64,000 bases of DNA from IMG/VR virus record IMGVR_UViG_3300025133_000023. One strand, written 5' to 3'. The position numbers and the translations under genes are program-made. This DNA is from a virus. Shown piece after piece: positions 1 to 7,833 of this stretch (position 1 is its first letter; every line of letters begins with the position of its first letter). The notes beneath the pieces were generated by a model that saw only the letters and a list, made by a program, of their open reading frames with translations, did no database searches and was not told the origin of the DNA.

Positions 1-8
1 AAATATCT

Positions 9-78
9 GGGAAGTTCATCTAATTCAAGACACGGCATAGTAGTCGTGAATGCAGGCTAAATCCTGCCCTTCCCACCA
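9..78 (+). pseudogene. degenerate tRNA-like element
   Basis: GGGAAG/CTTCCC acceptor pairing, A-CCA end, D arm, ACGGC/GTCGT stem with 6-nt loop ATAGTA, GCAGG/CCTGC T stem with 6-nt loop CTAAAT. Confidence 0.55.
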
Positions 79-1628: not shown

Positions 1629-2336
1629 TTGACTGGACCAAAGATTGCTCCTAGCAATAAGAACGAACGTACTCACATCATTTATATCCTTGACCGGTCT
1701 GGCTCTATGCTTTCCATTAAGGACGCAACCATTGAAGCATTCAATGAGTTCCTTTCAGGACAACAGTCAGAAGAAGGTGAAGTAACATTCACTCTTGTTC
1801 AGTTCGATGACCAATACGAAGTGGTATACGATGGCATTCCTTTGAGTGAAGTTGCTCCGCTTAACAACACAACCTTCATGCCACGTGGCATGACCGCTCT
1901 TCTTGATGCTCAGGGTAGAACCATCAACTCTACCCTGCAGGGAATCAAGACCATGCCTGCACACAAGCGACCAACAAAGGTTATTTGTGTTGTCCAAACA
2001 GATGGACACGAAAACTCTTCAAAGGAATTCAATCAGTTCCACGTCAACAAGATGGTCAAAGCTGCTGAAGAAGAGCACAAGTGGGAAATGATCTTCCTTG
2101 GCGCTACTGAAGATGCAATCTCAGTCGCCATCGATTATGGCTACGTTCCAACCAAGGCTCTCAAATGGTCAGCCAATGACCTAGGAGCAAGAGGAGCCAT
2201 GGCAAGCGCAAGCTCCTACATTACTCGTACACGCACAGCAACTCCTGATGAGGTCATGGCATTTACTGACCTTGAAAGAACACAGGCCGAGGGTGAAGTT
2301 GGAGCCCTAGACTCAACCATTGACCCCAACGAGTAA
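1629..2336 (+). CDS. standalone von Willebrand A domain protein
   Basis: ILDRSGSM MIDAS motif, GMTALLDA, TDGHEN. Confidence 0.85.
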   Translation: MTGPKIAPSNKNERTHIIYILDRSGSMLSIKDATIEAFNEFLSGQQSEEGEVTFTLVQFDDQYEVVYDGIPLSEVAPLNNTTFMPRGMTALLDAQGRTINSTLQGIKTMPAHKRPTKVICVVQTDGHENSSKEFNQFHVNKMVKAAEEEHKWEMIFLGATEDAISVAIDYGYVPTKALKWSANDLGARGAMASASSYITRTRTATPDEVMAFTDLERTQAEGEVGALDSTIDPNE

Positions 2337-2833: not shown

Positions 2834-2908
2834 GCGCTCGTAGCTCAATGGTAGAGCACTGCCTTGCCAAGGCAGAGGTTGAGAGTTCGAATCCCTCCGT
2901 CCGCTCCA
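2834..2908 (+). tRNA. tRNA-Gly(GCC), two acceptor-stem mismatches
   Basis: CTGCC/GGCAG stem, TT-GCC-AA loop, U73, CCA; C:C and T:T at acceptor pairs 4-5. Confidence 0.85.
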
Positions 2909-2909
2909 A

Positions 2910-3086
2910 GTTCAAGAGAACAGACAGCAAACTACCTTTACAGATAAGCAATTCACTGATAATGAATAGATAGTTGGTGCGAATCCAACCTTGGCCACCA
3001 TGATCTCTATAGGCAAGAGCCAGTTCGATTCTGGCAGAGGTATACTACGGCCAAGAAGCTAATTAAAAACAGTTCCCTGTTTGAGC
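2910..3086 (+). ncRNA. ACAGCAAAC-stem ncRNA 1 enclosing circularly permuted tRNA-Ile(GAT)
   Basis: Anticodon arm 2951-2967, T arm 2973-2989, CTTGGCC-A-CCA 2990-3000; complementary GGCCAAG at 3049-3055 lies downstream; terminal stems 2910-2921/3072-3086. Confidence 0.7.
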
Positions 3087-3130
3087 CCCTCATGCTTACC
3101 CTCCAAGCCAGGAGGATAGTATGGGGGCTC
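3083..3130 (+). other. long hairpin between ncRNA 1 and tRNA-Thr
   Basis: GAGCCCC..CATGCT..CCTCC/GGAGG..AGTATG..GGGGCTC. Confidence 0.4.
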
Positions 3131-3167: not shown

Positions 3168-3241
3168 GCCGGTATGGTGTAGTGGTAACACAGTTGTTTT
3201 GTAATCAACTACTGAAGGTTCGATTCCTTCTATCGGCACCA
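3168..3241 (+). tRNA. tRNA-Thr(TGT)
   Basis: GCCGGTA/TATCGGC acceptor, TT-TGT-AA loop, CCA. Confidence 0.92.
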
Positions 3242-3274: not shown

Positions 3275-3787
3275 TTGCGAACACAAACAGATCAAACTAG
3301 AATCAACCATCAAATTCGAGCACGTCAGGTAAGGCTCATCGATTCCACAGGCAACAACGTCGGAGTCATGGGAACCAGACAAGCACTAGAGCTAGCAAGA
3401 GACACTAGTCTCGACCTAGTAGAGGTTAACTCTAATGTTAATCCTCCCATCTGTAAGCTCATGGACTATGGAAAGTTCCAGTACGACAAGAAGAAGGCAG
3501 AGAAAGCTCGACCTAGAGCCATCTCCGTTAAGGAGGTAAAGCTTACTCCTCAAATGGGAGAGTCCGATCTTCAAGTCAGGCTTACCCGAGCCATTGAGTT
3601 CCTCACCAAGGGACACATAATTAGAGTTACAATGGAATTCAAAAAGGGATACCAGCGTAGGCAAGACCTTGGGGACGAGAAACTTGCCATGTTTGTAGAA
3701 GAACTAGATGGTATTGGTAACTGGGATGGCGATGCCAAGCCTAGTAAGCGAGGAGTAACATTCACGTTTACTCCTTGCTCTAAGTAA
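3275..3787 (+). CDS. infC: translation initiation factor IF3
   Basis: RINHQIRARQVRLID, LDLVEV, PPICKLMDYGKFQY, KEVKL..IF3 C-domain; TTG start. Confidence 0.95.
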   Translation: MRTQTDQTRINHQIRARQVRLIDSTGNNVGVMGTRQALELARDTSLDLVEVNSNVNPPICKLMDYGKFQYDKKKAEKARPRAISVKEVKLTPQMGESDLQVRLTRAIEFLTKGHIIRVTMEFKKGYQRRQDLGDEKLAMFVEELDGIGNWDGDAKPSKRGVTFTFTPCSK

Positions 3788-3818: not shown

Positions 3819-3941
3819 GAGTATTAAGGGTACTCACAGCAAACAATTTCACTCGCAAGAGTGTTGGGTTCGATTCCCAGTAAACCTGCCAAAATTAGGT
3901 TTAGCCAAAGGTGGCTATTAAATGTACCCTGACCAATACTC
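3819..3941 (+). ncRNA. ACAGCAAAC-stem ncRNA 2, permuted tRNA-like (YrlA-like topology)
   Basis: Variable-like arm 3850-3863, T arm 3864-3880, TAAACCT-G-CCA 3881-3891, AGGTTTA 3897-3903, D-like hairpin 3904-3915, terminal stems 3819-3833/3924-3941. Confidence 0.7.
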
Positions 3942-4044: not shown

Positions 4045-4065
4045 TCACATCAAGAACATACTAAG

Positions 4066-4104
4066 CCTTAGTCCCTCCTTAACGAGGGGCTAAGGTTTTT
4101 TTTT
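4066..4104 (+). terminator. rho-independent terminator
   Basis: CCTTAGTCCCTC/GAGGGGCTAAGG stem followed by 9 T. Confidence 0.9.
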
Positions 4105-4119
4105 GAAAGTTAAATGAAC

Positions 4120-4362
4120 ATGTTATTGGTAAGCAACAACCAACCCAGCTTTAGACTAGAGACGCTCTTTTGCAAACCATTCGTAGTGCAGTCAGAAGAA
4201 AACAACGCTTGGTTTACCAATTCCTTTGTAAATGAAACTAACTGGGTAGGACTCGTATCGATGCGAGGACCACGTCGGACTGCCTTTAAGGATGGTGTCC
4301 TAAGACCTAACTATATACTCATTGTGTTCTTGCACGATAAAAAGTTGATACAAACTATATGA
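4120..4362 (+). CDS. small hypothetical protein, MLLVS N-terminus
   Basis: Only ORF in the gap; overlaps rIIA start (ATGA); ATG 4114 is an alternative start. Confidence 0.6.
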   Translation: MLLVSNNQPSFRLETLFCKPFVVQSEENNAWFTNSFVNETNWVGLVSMRGPRRTAFKDGVLRPNYILIVFLHDKKLIQTI

Positions 4363-6608
4363 AACTAGAAAAGAAAAAGATTAGAACAGAAGAACATGGA
4401 GTATTAAGCGAAGCCAAGTTTGGTATTAGTGAATTCGATCAGGTACACATCCTAACAATCCTCAGAGACAAGCTCTACTCTAACAAGATTAGAGCATTCG
4501 TAAGAGAGTACTCAACCAACGCAACAGACGCTCATGTCTATGCAGACTGTCCAGAACGACCCATTAAGATTACTCTTCCAAGCCGCTTCGGCCCCGTGTT
4601 CTCAGTAAGAGACTTCGGTGATGGTCTTAGCGAGACTGACATCTATGAAATCTATGTAAGGTACGGAGCCTCCACCAAGAGAGAGTCCAACGATGCCATT
4701 GGGCAACTAGGACTGGGGTGTAAGAGCGCTTTCGCCTACACTGATGCCTTTACTATCAACTCATGGCACAAAGGCATACACTCCATCTACAGCGCCTTCA
4801 TCGATGAGACTAATGTCGGCAAGGTAACTAAGCTGTCTGCCATGCCTTCTGCAGATCCTTCTGGTGTTCGCATTGATATTCCAGTAGCAATGAAAGACAT
4901 TGATACGGTAAAGAAAGAAGCCAAGCACTGTTATAGATTCTTTACTGTTCGCCCCGAAATAAACATTCCTATTGTCCAAGAGAAAGTAATCAGCTCAGGC
5001 ACAGGATGGAAGCTTCTCCAGTACGAAACAGGGGCGGGTCGCTATAAATGGCGTAACGGAAGGAACGTCTTTGTCTCTGCAGAACCAGCTTACGCAGTCA
5101 TGGGTGACATTGGTTATCCTATTGACACTGAGCAAATCACTGGCTCCTCTGAAATGGTAGAAACCCTTATCGAAAGTCCCATCCTTATTCAATTCAATAT
5201 TGGTGACCTCTCCATTGCTGCTAACAGAGAAACCCTTGAGTACACCTCTCACACTATTGGTAACATTAAAAAACGTCTAGCTGCTGTAGGAGAAGAACTT
5301 CGAACCTCTCTTGTTCATGAGCTAGAGTCTTGCGTTACCCCATGGGATGCACGCATCAAAGCAAGGCAAATCTCTACACTTGGACTTACTGGCAACACTA
5401 GTCTGATTAAAACTTTGCTCCACTCTTCTCCCAAATGGAAGCATATCGGTGGAATCACTGAGCAAACCGTTCACATCACAGGCTATAACAATCAGAAACT
5501 TGTTCCTCGTTTACTTCGTAACGATAGAACTACTGTTTCTCAAGATAACTATCAAGGGAAGTATGCCAAGGTTGATGAGTCTACCGTTGTCTTCTATGTA
5601 GACACAAAGAATGCATGGCTCCGGCGTGCTCTACTTTTACGTAGCGACATCAAGAACAAGCACGATCTAACAGAAGTCAATGCTATCATCATTAAAGGAG
5701 AAGGACGAAGCATCGCCTCCCAGGTAGAACTTGAAACCTACCTTAAGCACAAGAACATCGACGGTGTTCCAGTCTATAAACTTAGCGAAGTAGACTACAC
5801 CAAAGTTACAGCAACAGGTAAAGTCTCCACTCCTCAAGGCGTCAAAACATCTGTTCTTATTCAAAATCCACAAGGCTGGTCCTCAACACGACAAAGCAGA
5901 TGGAACCCAACAACGACTGACCTTGCTAGCGGGAAAGGAGTCTATGCGATCATAGATCGCTTCCGAGCCATTGATTACAAGAACAATGAAGGCAGCTACA
6001 TCACTCGTCCTTGCTGGTCTACTGGATTTAAGCTAGTTGACTCAGAAAAAGAAGGACTGTGGGATAAAGCTGAACGATTACGTGCATTTACAGCCTACAA
6101 AGACCTTGTCGTTTATGGGTTCAAACCTCGTATTCGTGATAAAATAGGTAGTGGATGGATGGAATTCAAAGACTACTACAAGGTTGAATTCTTAAAGGCA
6201 ATTCAATCAGACACAACCTTTTTTGAAAACCTTAGCTTGATGAGAACAATGCATATGCTTAATAGGCATTGCTCAGCTCTTCATCAAGACCAAGACCTAC
6301 CAGCTCCTTCTGAAATCAAAGACCCAACAAGTCTAGTCGCTGAGTTCCTTTCGCTAGCCAAAAAAGTTACAGTATTTAGGACAACAGTATGGAAAGACAA
6401 GTCCATCCAGATCAAGCTAACAGATGCTAATGCTGAACTCTCTTCTATCTATGGTGAAGGCAATCCTATCGTTGGAATTGAATCAGACGAACTAGTTGAG
6501 AAAATTAACAATGCATATCCAATGCTCAGATACACTGGGCTTTCCTTCCAAGAGGAACGAAGGAAAGACATGATCGCCTATATTAATAAAGTAGACGGAG
6601 ATAAATAA
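4359..6608 (+). CDS. rIIA: RIIA-like protein (GHKL ATPase N-terminus)
   Basis: LYSNKIRAFVREYSTNATDAH, RDFGDGL, GQLGLGCKS; followed by an rIIB-like gene. Confidence 0.88.
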   Translation: MKLEKKKIRTEEHGVLSEAKFGISEFDQVHILTILRDKLYSNKIRAFVREYSTNATDAHVYADCPERPIKITLPSRFGPVFSVRDFGDGLSETDIYEIYVRYGASTKRESNDAIGQLGLGCKSAFAYTDAFTINSWHKGIHSIYSAFIDETNVGKVTKLSAMPSADPSGVRIDIPVAMKDIDTVKKEAKHCYRFFTVRPEINIPIVQEKVISSGTGWKLLQYETGAGRYKWRNGRNVFVSAEPAYAVMGDIGYPIDTEQITGSSEMVETLIESPILIQFNIGDLSIAANRETLEYTSHTIGNIKKRLAAVGEELRTSLVHELESCVTPWDARIKARQISTLGLTGNTSLIKTLLHSSPKWKHIGGITEQTVHITGYNNQKLVPRLLRNDRTTVSQDNYQGKYAKVDESTVVFYVDTKNAWLRRALLLRSDIKNKHDLTEVNAIIIKGEGRSIASQVELETYLKHKNIDGVPVYKLSEVDYTKVTATGKVSTPQGVKTSVLIQNPQGWSSTRQSRWNPTTTDLASGKGVYAIIDRFRAIDYKNNEGSYITRPCWSTGFKLVDSEKEGLWDKAERLRAFTAYKDLVVYGFKPRIRDKIGSGWMEFKDYYKVEFLKAIQSDTTFFENLSLMRTMHMLNRHCSALHQDQDLPAPSEIKDPTSLVAEFLSLAKKVTVFRTTVWKDKSIQIKLTDANAELSSIYGEGNPIVGIESDELVEKINNAYPMLRYTGLSFQEERRKDMIAYINKVDGDK

Positions 6609-6611
6609 AGT

Positions 6612-7478
6612 ATGAATACACGACCACCAATGATCATGACAGCAAGCAGCGTCACAGTCATTCTCCAAGGGAAAAGTCACACCATCTATCGTGACCATCC
6701 TTCTTGGCAGAACATCAGAAAAGCAATCGCGACTGAAGACTGGAACGCACTTCCAGACCTAATAGATGTCCAAGCAGCAATTGCTCGCTGGGCACAGGGG
6801 CGATACACCGTCACAGAAACAGAAGTTCTCTGCGACGGAGAACGTCTTCCTCCTGCCATCGAGACACGAGTGCTTGCTTTCCTTGCCGAAGGACTAAGTT
6901 TCGAGTATCTTCTCAAGTTCCATGAACGACTAGACGCTAACCCAAGTCATCGTGCAGTTACTGAACTGTATGATTTCCTTGAGAACAAGAACATCCCTAT
7001 CGGTGCAGACGGATGCTTCTACGCCTATAAGGCAATCAGATCAGACTGGAAGGATATTTACTCTGGTACTATTGATAACTCTATTGGTACATCACCCGAA
7101 ATGCCACGCAACAAGGTTGATGACAATAGGGACCGCACCTGCTCCAAGGGACTTCATGTTGGTGGCCTCCAGTATGTCAAGCTCTATGGTCGAGGTGACT
7201 CCAAATATGTCATCGTTAAGGTAGATCCAGCCAACGTTGTATCAGTCCCACGGGACCACAACGCACAGAAGGTAAGGGTAAGCACTTACGATGTTATCGA
7301 AGAGTACACCGGTCCACTTCCCGAGACTGTCTATGGACAGACCGTACCTGACTGGGTACAGGATGATTGGGAAGATGAGAGCTGGAACACAGATGAAAAG
7401 TACTGTCTCAAGTGTGATGATTGGCTAGAGGTAGCTTTCGATACTCTCGACTGCCCCACTTGTGGTGAAAGGTTTTAA
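6612..7478 (+). CDS. rIIB: RIIB-like protein with C-terminal Zn ribbon
   Basis: NPSHRAVTELYDFL, DGCFYAYK, MPRNKVDD, CSKGLHVG, VKVDPANVVSVP; terminal CxxC..CxxC. Confidence 0.9.
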   Translation: MNTRPPMIMTASSVTVILQGKSHTIYRDHPSWQNIRKAIATEDWNALPDLIDVQAAIARWAQGRYTVTETEVLCDGERLPPAIETRVLAFLAEGLSFEYLLKFHERLDANPSHRAVTELYDFLENKNIPIGADGCFYAYKAIRSDWKDIYSGTIDNSIGTSPEMPRNKVDDNRDRTCSKGLHVGGLQYVKLYGRGDSKYVIVKVDPANVVSVPRDHNAQKVRVSTYDVIEEYTGPLPETVYGQTVPDWVQDDWEDESWNTDEKYCLKCDDWLEVAFDTLDCPTCGERF

Positions 7479-7667: not shown

Positions 7668-7749
7668 ACTTCGTTCGTCTAACGGTTAGGACATAGGACA
7701 TTGGTTTTTCAAGCCAAGAATAGGGGTTCGATTCCCCTACGAAGGACCA
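7668..7749 (+). tRNA. tRNA-Glu(TTC) with 7-nt tandem duplication
   Basis: TT-TTC-AA loop, TAGGG T stem, CCA; TAGGACA repeated at 7687-7693 and 7694-7700. Confidence 0.8.
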
Positions 7750-7757
7750 AGCATCAT

Positions 7758-7833
7758 GGGCATGTAGCTTAGCGGCCAAAGCACTGGTATTACAAACCAG
7801 ACATCGTGGGTTCGAGTCCCCCCATGCCCACCA
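7758..7833 (+). tRNA. tRNA-Val(TAC)
   Basis: GGGCATG/CATGCCC acceptor, AT-TAC-AA loop, CCA. Confidence 0.92.

What the first reader, a model, noticed from the sequence alone, without database searches (positions are those of the whole stretch)
2910..3086. Circularly permuted tRNA-Ile(GAU) inside a larger stem-closed ncRNA
Seen: the 3' two-thirds of a tRNA come first, in the order D-stem 3' strand (AAGC 2946-2949), perfect anticodon arm ATTCA-CT-GAT-AA-TGAAT, 5-nt variable region, T arm GTTGG-TGCGAAT-CCAAC, CTTGGCC-A-CCA (2990-3000). The perfectly complementary acceptor 5' strand GGCCAAG plus AA-GCTA (D-stem 5' strand) comes 48 nt later (3049-3061). The 'D-loop' is replaced by a long terminal stem carrying ACAGCAAAC. 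The linker holds a second T-arm (GCCAG-TTCGATT-CTGGC, 3019-3035) whose flank AGAGGTA pairs 7 bp with TACCTTT (2933-2939), crossing the Ile acceptor helix (pseudoknot or two-state switch). No normal tRNA-Ile is in the window. Known: permuted tRNA genes are described in some algae and archaea, and two-piece tmRNAs in bacteria. Inference: processing of the linker could give a chargeable two-piece tRNA-Ile tethered to a protein-binding stem, or an anticodon-nuclease decoy.
Basis: partly seen in the sequence, partly recalled or inferred. Interest (0 to 1): 0.9.

Follow-up and report, generated by a model that had tools for sequence, protein, structure and literature searches.

The report
Handle-tagged permuted tRNA-Ile mimic RNA
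A marine T4-like phage carries a small RNA gene built like a tRNA-Ile turned inside out and clamped by a conserved "handle"; the same handle marks many small RNAs in phages that encode a Ro60-shaped RNA-binding protein, so it is probably a viral Y-RNA-type tRNA mimic rather than a working tRNA.

Summary
At 2914-3080 a tRNA-Ile(GAU)-like body is encoded in permuted order. Its acceptor helix CTTGGCC/GGCCAAG is perfect (pair probability >=0.99; ~0.3% by chance) and is closed by a 48-nt linker holding a second T-arm hairpin. The whole is clamped by a terminal stem followed by ACAGCAAAC.

That "handle" (AAG-stem-NN-ACAGCAA...stem-CUG) is the main result. This phage has six such units, two directly upstream of a 525-aa DUF2828 protein whose predicted fold matches Ro60. 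Dozens of unrelated phages carry handle units whose stems covary and whose cargo is tRNA-derived. DUF2828 is present in 15 of 16 complete carrier phages, against 1.4% of GenBank phages.

The closest known kinds are YrlA Y RNAs (sub-threshold Rfam hits; the mycobacteriophage YrlA carries this handle) and Dictyostelium Class I RNAs (same handle design).

E1 is most likely a Ro60-like-protein partner RNA displaying a tRNA-Ile mimic. It is probably not a decoding tRNA: U55 is G, there is no D-loop, the phage has a normal tRNA-Ile just outside the window, and it has no RNA ligase.

No orthologs, variants or RNA data exist, so E1's own helices, processing and function remain untested. This scan found the same family earlier on other DNA.

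The parts
2914..3080 (+). E1: whole handle-tagged RNA unit (AAG ... CUGU)
   Evidence: Delimited by family consensus and paralog alignment; cargo fold
2915..2921 (+). handle stem, 5' strand AGAGAAC (pairs with 3072-3078; 6 of 7 pairs, A.C at the third)
   Evidence: Sequence; aligns with AGGGTAC/AGGATGC/AGGGTGC of the paralogs, with a compensatory GAAC/GTTC vs GTAC/GTAC change. In silico a shifted register competes with it
2924..2932 (+). conserved box ACAGCAAAC
   Evidence: Exact 9-mer occurs 3 times in the 189.6-kb genome, all on this strand in the tRNA cluster; invariant CAGCAA in all six units and in units of ~44 IMG/VR loci
2947..2949 (+). D-stem 3' strand AGC (pairs in trans with GCT 3058-3060)
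   Evidence: Pair probability 0.86-0.91
2951..2967 (+). anticodon arm ATTCA-CTGATAA-TGAAT, anticodon GAT at 2958-2960
   Evidence: The same CTGATAA loop is displayed in handle units L014/L043, L086 and Campylobacter phage F355
2973..2989 (+). T arm 1 GTTGG-TGCGAAT-CCAAC (G at position 55)
2990..3000 (+). acceptor 3' strand CTTGGCC, discriminator A, CCA
   Evidence: Fits the family template T arm-7 nt-N73-CCA (19 of 76 units vs 1.2 expected)
3001..3048 (+). 48-nt linker closing the acceptor; holds a minihelix ATCTCT(3003-3008)/AGAGGT(3036-3041) capped by the canonical T arm 2, GCCAG-TTCGATT-CTGGC (3019-3035)
   Evidence: Pair probabilities 0.95-0.98. Long acceptor-loop linkers (59-113 nt) occur in other members
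3049..3060 (+). acceptor 5' strand GGCCAAG, AA, D-stem 5' strand GCT
   Evidence: Perfect 7-bp Watson-Crick helix with 2990-2996, probability >=0.99
3061..3071 (+). A-rich 3' junction AATTAAAAACA (contains TTAAA, shared with E2 and E-1)
3072..3080 (+). handle stem 3' strand GTTCCCT followed by GT (CCTG invariant in all six units)
3826..3932 (+). E2: paralogous handle unit with YrlA-like cargo (V hairpin, T arm, TAAACCT-G-CCA-AAATT-AGGTTTA closed acceptor, D hairpin)
1..66 (+). 3' part of E0, a third handle unit that starts ~61 nt upstream of the window (its box is at window -51)
2834..2908 (+). flanking tRNA-Gly(GCC)
3168..3241 (+). flanking tRNA-Thr(UGU)

Best explanation
E1 (2914-3080) is one of at least six small RNAs of this phage that share a terminal 'handle': AAG, a 7-bp closing stem, a 2-nt spacer, the box (A/C)CAGCAA, and after the cargo the 3' stem strand ending CCUG. 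The handle is most likely the binding site for the phage's own Ro60-fold protein (DUF2828+DUF7788+vWA, 525 aa, ~19 kb upstream on the same strand), by analogy with Y RNA stems bound by Ro60/Rsr. E1's cargo is a tRNA-Ile(GAU)-derived body in permuted order: D-stem 3' strand, anticodon arm, variable loop, T arm, acceptor 3' strand-A-CCA, a 48-nt linker with a T-arm minihelix, acceptor 5' strand, D-stem 5' strand. The handle therefore enters where the D loop would be and the acceptor end is closed. It probably arose from a tandem or dimeric tRNA-Ile, the model proposed for YrlA. Shown here: the anatomy, the handle family, stem covariation across phages, co-occurrence with the Ro60-fold gene, and that gene's fold. 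Inferred: the protein binds the handle. Inferred: the tRNA-like cargo presents tRNA-Ile features (anticodon loop, acceptor/T minihelix) to a host or phage tRNA-recognising factor, as a tether or as a decoy, rather than decoding codons. Possible but unproven: RNase P opens the 7-bp acceptor at 3048/3049.
For: Anatomy and stability. Six units in this phage share invariant AAG, CAGCAA and CCTG, with compensatory stem changes. Two of them (R1, R2) lie directly upstream of the DUF2828 gene, and R2 ends 17 nt before its start codon. Family: an IMG/VR pattern scan gave 50 loci. About 155 units from 44 loci have closing stems showing all six pair types at every position, and swapping partners drops pairing to 3.2 of 7. 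Cargo is tRNA-derived in several topologies, including other Ile(GAU) loops. Partner: DUF2828 is present in 21 of 25 carrier phages (15 of 16 that are >=90% complete) and in this phage, while TROVE is present in 0 of 25. Homologs occur in 694 of 50,697 GenBank phages. The AF2 model (pLDDT 79) has Ro60/TROVE structures as its top 13 PDB matches, E 3e-9 to 3e-6, TM up to 0.60. Handle units adjoin the gene in LeBron, SUSP2, P100 and F355. Rfam YrlA aligns full-length below threshold to type-(a) units and to the LeBron unit (31-40 bits). Rfam Dicty Class I aligns to small units, including this phage's E-1 and R2 (21-34 bits). Against a decoding role: G55, no D loop, a canonical tRNA-Ile(GAU) at window -232..-157, and no RtcB/Rnl1/Rnl2.
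Against: No binding, expression or processing data exist for E1 or any family member examined here. E1 is ~19 kb from the Ro60-like gene, so adjacency does not hold for E1 itself. E1's family-type handle stem has an A.C mismatch and zero probability in the thermodynamic ensemble, where a shifted pairing CAGACAG/CUGUUUG that uses part of the box is 7.5 kcal/mol better. The handle of this copy may therefore be impaired or fold differently. No ortholog or sequence variant of E1 was found, so none of its cargo helices is supported by covariation. The unit set used for covariation was selected for having a stem, and control motifs also find chance stems often. The DUF2828 background was measured by a different method and not against size-matched tRNA-rich phages.
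Confidence: 0.6

Rival explanations
1. Evolutionary relic: E1 is a decaying product of tandem tRNA-Ile duplication and rearrangement inside a tRNA cluster. It is transcribed and cut up with its neighbours but has no function of its own.
For: Degenerate features: G55 in the T loop, lost D arm, A.C mismatch in the handle stem, a more stable alternative closure, only a borderline Rfam tRNA score (29.1 bits), and no orthologs. The phage has a normal tRNA-Ile(GAU).
Against: All five cargo helices are perfect or near-perfect. The exact 9-nt box, AAG and CCUG are retained. The acceptor module fits the family template including A73-CCA. Ile(GAU) loops recur as cargo in unrelated phages. Random decay would not keep a 7/7 Watson-Crick helix across a 48-nt insert (0.3% by chance).
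Confidence: 0.15
2. Genuine permuted or two-piece tRNA-Ile: RNase P and 3' trimming open the acceptor loop, giving a CCA-ended, IleRS-chargeable two-piece tRNA (held together by the acceptor, D and handle helices) that decodes AUY codons or delivers Ile elsewhere.
For: 7-bp acceptor, A73 and encoded CCA. By my recollection of the E. coli IleRS identity set (Nureki et al. 1994; from memory, not tested), E1 keeps G34 A35 U36 A37 A38, A73, C4:G69 and U12:A23. M. smegmatis YrlA with a 7-bp acceptor is cut by RNase P and gains CCA in vivo (PMC4201824). N73-CCA is enriched in the family (19 of 76 vs 1.2 expected).
Against: No D loop, so no G18/G19-T loop elbow. U55 is replaced by G. C29:G41 is not kept. 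A handle with a bound protein at the elbow would clash with the ribosome. The linker's stable minihelix would hinder 3' trimming. A canonical tRNA-Ile(GAU) is present. There is no phage RNA ligase for a circularisation route. ARAGORN calls neither a tRNA nor a tmRNA here.
Confidence: 0.07
3. Processing punctuation: the tRNA-like folds in the Gly-Thr spacer only serve to recruit RNase P/RNase E and separate tRNAs and the IF3 mRNA from a polycistronic transcript.
For: E1 lies between tRNA-Gly and tRNA-Thr, upstream of IF3, within one apparent promoter-to-terminator unit (weak promoter-like site 2721-2749, terminator 4063-4098).
Against: This does not explain the conserved box and covarying handle shared with units that carry no tRNA-like part, nor the co-occurrence with the Ro60-fold gene. 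The promoter-like sites are no more frequent than in shuffles.
Confidence: 0.1

Closest known systems
YrlA Y RNAs bound by bacterial/phage Ro60 (Rsr); Rfam RF02553; Chen et al. 2014 (PMC4201824), Wang et al. 2018 (10.1101/312249)
   Same: [quoted passage not shown] The cargo is a circularly permuted tRNA mimic with a closed acceptor stem. The origin proposed for YrlA, from dimeric tRNAs, fits E1. The genome encodes a Ro60-fold protein. The mycobacteriophage YrlA (LeBron) itself carries this handle. RNase P opening is shown for one YrlA with a 7-bp acceptor.
   Different: The box is (A/G)CAGCAA, not GNCGAAN0-1G/CGAA. The partner is DUF2828-type, with no Pfam TROVE hit. E1 keeps an anticodon arm and A73-CCA, lacks a D hairpin, and is permuted in the D loop rather than at the anticodon stem. 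It has no Rfam YrlA hit even at E<=10. It lies ~19 kb from the protein gene rather than within 4 kb.
Dictyostelium Class I RNAs; Rfam RF01414; Kjellin et al. 2021 (PMC7919456)
   Same: Same handle design: starts AAG, a short covarying stem joins the ends, an unstructured motif containing ACAGCAA follows the 5' strand (often then UUAAA), and it ends CUG(U). The Rfam model aligns full-length to small phage units.
   Different: Class I RNAs are eukaryotic, 42-65 nt, with no tRNA-like cargo, a DUSE promoter and a reported partner Rnp1A/CIBP (an RRM protein). E1 is 167 nt and phage-encoded. All phage hits are below the Rfam threshold. Homology versus convergence is open.
Thermus phage phiLo Ro60 with Yrl1/Yrl2 (PMC12135203)
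   Same: A phage-encoded Ro60-fold protein with small partner RNAs encoded next to its gene. It is proposed to hijack a host enzyme (PNPase). phiLo Ro60 is among the top structural matches of this phage's protein.
   Different: The phiLo RNAs use a CGAA bulge and have no tRNA-like cargo. The protein is TROVE-type.
Circularly permuted tRNA genes of Cyanidioschyzon merolae and some archaea
   Same: The 3' part of the tRNA is encoded before the 5' part, with the acceptor ends joined by a linker.
   Different: Those are matured through a BHB motif, a splicing endonuclease and a ligase into canonical tRNAs. E1 has no BHB. Removing its handle would leave a ~36-nt GG-less 'D loop'. The phage has no ligase.

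Membership tests
Phage 'stem-ACAGCAA handle' small RNAs (no published or Rfam family found) | Box (A/G/C)CAGCAA 0-3 nt after the 5' strand of a closing stem | tested here: met
   ACAGCAAAC at 2924-2932, 2 nt after AGAGAAC
Phage 'stem-ACAGCAA handle' small RNAs (no published or Rfam family found) | 7-10 bp closing stem starting (A/T)AG and ending CT-G | tested here: inconclusive
   AAG and CCTGT are present and 6 of 7 pairs form (A.C mismatch), with a compensatory change relative to E2. But the ensemble probability is 0 because a shifted register is more stable
Phage 'stem-ACAGCAA handle' small RNAs (no published or Rfam family found) | Genome encodes a DUF2828-type Ro60-fold protein | tested here: met
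   525-aa DUF2828+DUF7788 protein with a Ro60 fold
Phage 'stem-ACAGCAA handle' small RNAs (no published or Rfam family found) | Located in a tRNA cluster or next to the Ro60-like gene, on the same strand | tested here: met
   Between tRNA-Gly and tRNA-Thr, on the same strand as the gene
YrlA (Rfam RF02553) | Rfam covariance model at or above the gathering score (69 bits) | tested here: not met
   No hit for E1 at E<=10. Related type-(a) units reach 31-40 bits
YrlA (Rfam RF02553) | GNCGAAN0-1G motif near the 5' end | tested here: not met
   The sequence has ACAGCAAAC instead
YrlA (Rfam RF02553) | tRNA-like domain with T arm, D arm and closed acceptor stem | tested here: inconclusive
   T arm and closed 7-bp acceptor are present. 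The D arm is reduced to a 3-bp trans helix, and an anticodon arm is present, unlike in YrlA
YrlA (Rfam RF02553) | Encoded within ~4 kb of a TROVE-domain Ro60 ortholog; bound by Rsr | tested here: not met
   No TROVE in the phage. The Ro60-fold DUF2828 gene is ~19 kb away. Binding is not testable here
Dictyostelium Class I RNA (Rfam RF01414) | AAG start, short stem, 11-nt motif with ACAGCAA, CUGU end | tested here: met
   AAG 2914-2916, ACAGCAA 2924-2930, CUGU 3077-3080
Dictyostelium Class I RNA (Rfam RF01414) | Length 42-65 nt, Rfam gathering score 41.5, DUSE promoter, dictyostelid genome | tested here: not met
   167 nt; no Rfam hit for E1; phage genome
Canonical tRNA (Rfam RF00005 / ARAGORN) | Linear cloverleaf with a paired acceptor and D arm | tested here: not met
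   Rfam scores 29.1 bits (GA 29) but with only 4 of 7 acceptor and 3 of 4 D pairs. ARAGORN makes no call
Permuted tRNA genes (algal/archaeal type) | Leader-trailer BHB motif and a reconstitutable canonical tRNA after excision and ligation | tested here: not met
   The handle is a plain stem plus box. Excision would leave a ~36-nt D region without GG. No RtcB/Rnl in the phage
Two-piece (permuted) tmRNA | tRNA-Ala-like acceptor lacking an anticodon arm, plus a tag reading frame; detected by ARAGORN/Rfam | tested here: not met
   No tmRNA call; an anticodon arm is present

The most novel reading that the evidence does not exclude
The handle is a recognition element for DUF2828-type Ro60-like proteins that is shared across kingdoms, which would make Dictyostelium Class I RNAs Y-RNA-type partners of such a protein. 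In addition, E1 would be opened by RNase P at 3048/3049 into a two-piece, CCA-ended tRNA-Ile mimic that stays tethered to the phage Ro60-like ring. There it would capture or neutralise a host factor that attacks or senses tRNA-Ile, such as an anticodon nuclease or another tRNA-directed defence.
Probability: 0.12. Interest if true: 0.9.

Novelty: new variant of a known kind. Interest (0 to 1): 0.66.

Why it matters
Ro60/Y-RNA particles are known from animals, some bacteria and a few phages, always with a CGA-type binding motif. If this reading holds, three things follow.

1. A second, much more widespread phage version exists. It pairs a DUF2828-type Ro60-fold protein with small RNAs tagged by a stem-ACAGCAA handle, and these RNAs display interchangeable tRNA parts.
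2. E1 is an informative member. It keeps an almost complete tRNA-Ile body with anticodon, A73 and CCA. That shows how such mimics arise from tandem tRNAs and offers a testable substrate for RNase P, IleRS and anticodon-directed defence nucleases.
3. The handle has the same design as Dictyostelium Class I RNAs, whose function has been unknown since 2004. This gives a concrete, testable candidate partner class for them.

It also matters for annotation: these units sit unannotated in the tRNA clusters of many cultured phages (Felix O1-like, P100, Campylobacter and mycobacteriophages).

Tried and rejected
- **Relatives of the phage for covariation in E1.** IF3- and rIIA-anchored scans of IMG/VR found only ~30%-identical or no relatives. 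An exact DNA scan found none. GenBank phages matched only the tRNA-Gly. The protein search gave one 55%-identical IF3 on a 2.7-kb contig whose DNA could not be fetched. Three other assemblies of the same phage are 100% identical over E1 and E2. An E1-type pattern scan of JGI metagenomes gave no ortholog.
- **Sequencing runs.** No RNA holder is listed. Laying contigs of four partial holders showed only fragments of the same phage, with no differences in E1, plus unrelated tRNA cross-matches.
- **Covariance model of the handle.** MAFFT placed the 3' stems of 34 small units in two registers, so no model was built. Scripted counts were used instead.
- **Loose handle grammar on the genome.** It was not specific: 24 hits against a mean of 10.6 in shuffles. 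The >=7-bp closing-stem test had a high background (86% vs 40-72% for control motifs). Neither is used as evidence.
- **Single-sequence structure prediction of the DUF2828 protein.** It failed (pLDDT 36). Sequence search of the PDB gave only a marginal TROVE hit (E = 0.09).
- **Readings rejected.** Two-piece tmRNA (no ARAGORN or Rfam call; an anticodon arm is present). A MotA-box or promoter reading of the box (wrong strand). H-type pseudoknot ACAG/CUGU coexisting with the handle (loop lengths make it implausible). The vWA protein at 1629-2336 as a split Ro60 (no support; the real Ro60-fold gene lies elsewhere).
- **Literature.** Searches for the box, for DUF2828 and for Class I RNA plus phage found no description of this family.

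Full report
**Context.** The window is the reverse strand of a complete 189,645-bp IMG/VR virus record. The virus is a T4-like myovirus, with rIIA at 4359-6608, rIIB at 6612-7478, a phage IF3 at 3275-3787 and a NadM-Nudix gene. It is very distant from cultured phages: rIIA is at most 34% identical. The finding lies in the 259-nt spacer between tRNA-Gly(GCC) 2834-2908 and tRNA-Thr(UGU) 3168-3241, inside a cluster of ten tRNAs. Three runs recorded as marine metagenomes hold all sampled words of the stretch, but they may be the samples it was assembled from.

**Observation.** Rfam's tRNA model gives a borderline linear hit at 2926-2997 (29.1 bits, GA 29). That hit has only 4 of 7 acceptor and 3 of 4 D-stem pairs, because it uses the box AGCAAAC as a false acceptor strand. 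ARAGORN calls nothing.

The permuted reading is much better. CTTGGCC (2990-2996) and GGCCAAG (3049-3055) form a perfect Watson-Crick helix. In the delimited unit the pair probabilities are as follows:

| Helix | Pair probability |
|---|---|
| Acceptor | 0.99-1.0 |
| T arm 1 | ~0.97 |
| T arm 2 | ~0.96 |
| Anticodon stem | 0.80-0.91 |
| AGC/GCU D-like helix | 0.86-0.91 |

A perfect complement arises by chance in 0.3% of shuffles. With T arm 2 this forms an acceptor/T-type minihelix inside the acceptor loop.

The body deviates from a real tRNA in four ways: G instead of U at position 55, A8, no D loop, and 13:22 unpaired.

**What it belongs to.** The 9-mer ACAGCAAAC occurs three times in the genome, all on this strand within 3.9 kb. 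These are E1, E2 (3826-3932) and E0 (straddling the window start). A fourth unit, E-1, lies near -383, and two more (R1, R2) lie at about -18150 and -18007.

All six share invariant AAG, CAGCAA and CCTG, around a 7-bp stem whose sequence changes with compensation: AGGGTAC/GTACCCT, AGGATGC/GCATCCT, AGGGTGC/GCACCCT, and E1's AGAGAAC/GTTCCCT with one A.C. E1 and E2 also share GCTA(A)TTAAA...GTNCCCTG at their 3' ends.

A gapped pattern scan of IMG/VR returned 50 loci from unrelated phages with contigs of 5 to 378 kb. Delimiting units by their closing stems showed one architecture with varied cargo:
- **(a)** YrlA-like permuted bodies: V hairpin, T arm, closed acceptor, D arm.
- **(b)** The same plus an anticodon arm. 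L014 and L043 carry the same CTGATAA loop as E1; L051 carries UUU.
- **(c)** Near-linear tRNA bodies.
- **(d)** Bare anticodon-stem-loop mimics or simple hairpins.

Across ~155 units from 44 loci, every stem position shows all six pair types, and swapping partners drops pairing to 3.2 of 7. The units were selected for having a stem, so this shows covariation, not prevalence.

The family also has an acceptor template that E1 fits. After the T stem come 7 nt, then N73-CCA in 19 of 76 units (1.2 expected). The complementary strand usually follows within 2-21 nt, but after 59-113 nt in three members. It is typically followed by TA-GCTC; E1 has AA-GCTA.

**Partner protein.** I found the family and its Rfam resemblances independently. 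Earlier notes of this scan then supplied the DUF2828 lead, which I tested.
- TROVE (PF05731) is absent from this phage and from 25 of 25 carrier phages.
- DUF2828 (PF11443) is present here and in 21 of 25 carriers, including 15 of the 16 that are >=90% complete.
- Homologs occur in only 694 of 50,697 GenBank phage records.
- This phage's protein (525 aa; DUF2828 + DUF7788, weak vWA_Ro60) was folded with a 19-sequence alignment (pLDDT 79, pTM 0.77). Its top 13 PDB matches are all Ro60/TROVE proteins over the full length: Xenopus and human Ro60, Deinococcus Rsr and Thermus phage phiLo Ro60, with E from 3e-9 to 3e-6 and TM up to 0.60.
- R1 and R2 lie directly upstream of this gene.

In cultured phages, handle units adjoin the homologous gene as follows:

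| Phage | Handle units next to the gene |
|---|---|
| Mycobacteriophage LeBron | 3 |
| Felix O1-like SUSP2 | 4 |
| Listeria P100 | 3 (an RtcB lies nearby) |
| Campylobacter F355 | 2 (one displays a CTGATAA loop) |
| DLP_6, QD01 | none within 3 kb |

**Relation to known classes.** Rfam YrlA aligns full-length but below threshold to type-(a) units (31-35 bits) and to the middle LeBron unit (39.8 bits; GA 69). The published mycobacteriophage YrlA (PMC4201824) is therefore a member of this handle family. However, the defining YrlA/Rsr motif GNCGAAN0-1G (CGAA in phiLo, PMC12135203) is replaced by (A/G)CAGCAA.

Rfam's Dictyostelium Class I model has the consensus GaUcuC-CUU-ACAGCAA-UuaAA...GagAuC-UG. 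It aligns full-length to small units at 32-34 bits, and to this phage's E-1 and R2 at 21-24 bits (GA 41.5). Kjellin et al. describe Class I RNAs as starting AAG, closed by a covarying stem, carrying an unstructured 11-nt motif, ending CUGU, and unique to dictyostelids. That is the same design as the phage handle. I found no paper describing the phage family, DUF2828 function or this link.

**How E1 most likely works.**
- *Shown:* the anatomy, membership of a covarying family, the Ro60-fold gene and its co-occurrence with the handle.
- *Inferred by analogy with Ro60-Y RNA:* the protein binds the handle, and the cargo engages a tRNA-recognising factor.

E1's cargo looks like the junction of two tandem tRNA-Ile copies: the 3' two-thirds of the first, a spacer, and the first 13 nt of the second. 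This is the origin proposed for YrlA (10.1101/312249).

A decoding role is unlikely. The body has G55, no D loop or elbow, and a handle at the elbow position. A canonical tRNA-Ile(GAU) with an unrelated acceptor lies at window -232..-157. The phage has no RtcB/Rnl ligase, and excising the handle would not restore a D loop.

RNase P cleavage at 3048/3049 is plausible, given the 7-bp acceptor, A73-CCA and the M. smegmatis YrlA precedent, but it is untested. Display of anticodon loops across the family (UUU most frequent, then Ile, Arg and others) is compatible with a decoy or tether for tRNA-directed enzymes. The sample is small and AT-biased.

**Weak points.**
- E1 is ~19 kb from the protein gene.
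- Its handle stem has an A.C mismatch and is out-competed in silico by a shifted pairing CAGACAG/CUGUUUG that uses ACAG of the box (-41.4 vs -33.9 kcal/mol).
- No ortholog, variant or RNA read exists for E1. None of its own helices has covariation support, and neither expression nor processing is shown.

**Verdict.** E1 is a real, unusual member of a widespread phage small-RNA family that I did not find described. It is best seen as a new variant of the Ro60/Y-RNA (YrlA) kind. This scan has met the family before on other DNA, and I re-tested its key claims here.

Noticed in passing
window 3083-3130: A GC-rich 48-nt hairpin (GAGCCCCTCATGC...GTATGGGGGCTC) abuts E1's 3' end and is followed by TTCTTGTTTG. 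Its 3' arm holds AGGAGG-N6-ATG (ATG at 3121), opening a 27-codon frame that runs into tRNA-Thr. The terminator scan did not call it.
   Followed up: partly
all handle units, e.g. window 2924-2927 vs 3077-3080: ACAG of the conserved box is complementary to the conserved 3' tail CUGU in E1, in two of the other five units of this phage (E-1 and R1), and in the Dictyostelium consensus. In E1 this extends to a 7-bp alternative closure. It is unclear whether this is a functional alternative pairing.
   Followed up: partly
window 7-76 (just after E0's G-CCA): A second tRNA-like fold, GGGAAG...CTTCCC-A-CCA, with two internal hairpins but no canonical T loop. It overlaps the 3' part of E0, and neither ARAGORN nor Rfam calls it.
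   Followed up: no
G000:C1:177750-177826 (about 20.8 kb upstream of the window): ARAGORN calls a tRNA with anticodon CUA ('tRNA-Pyl'), i.e. a possible amber-suppressor tRNA, about 2.8 kb upstream of the Ro60-like gene.
   Followed up: no
window 7677-7738: A partial Rfam tRNA match (32.3 bits, model positions 10-63) lies directly upstream of tRNA-Val 7758-7833. It may be another tRNA-derived element.
   Followed up: no
window 3275-3787 and L004:1-1054: The phage encodes translation-related genes around the cluster: a full IF3 (IF3_N + IF3_C), an ArfC-family hit and a faint HD_4 hit just upstream of the window.
   Followed up: partly
window 1629-2336: A stand-alone 235-aa vWA protein (phrog_7371) sits inside the tRNA cluster. 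It is separate from the Ro60-like gene, and its role is unknown.
   Followed up: partly
L089:2793-2856 (Campylobacter phage F355) and L088:2625-2891 (Listeria phage P100): Unannotated handle RNAs lie directly upstream of the DUF2828 genes of cultured phages. The F355 unit displays a CATTA-CTGATAA-TGATG Ile(GAU) anticodon-arm mimic. P100 has an RtcB 'tRNA splicing ligase' 1.3 kb downstream.
   Followed up: partly
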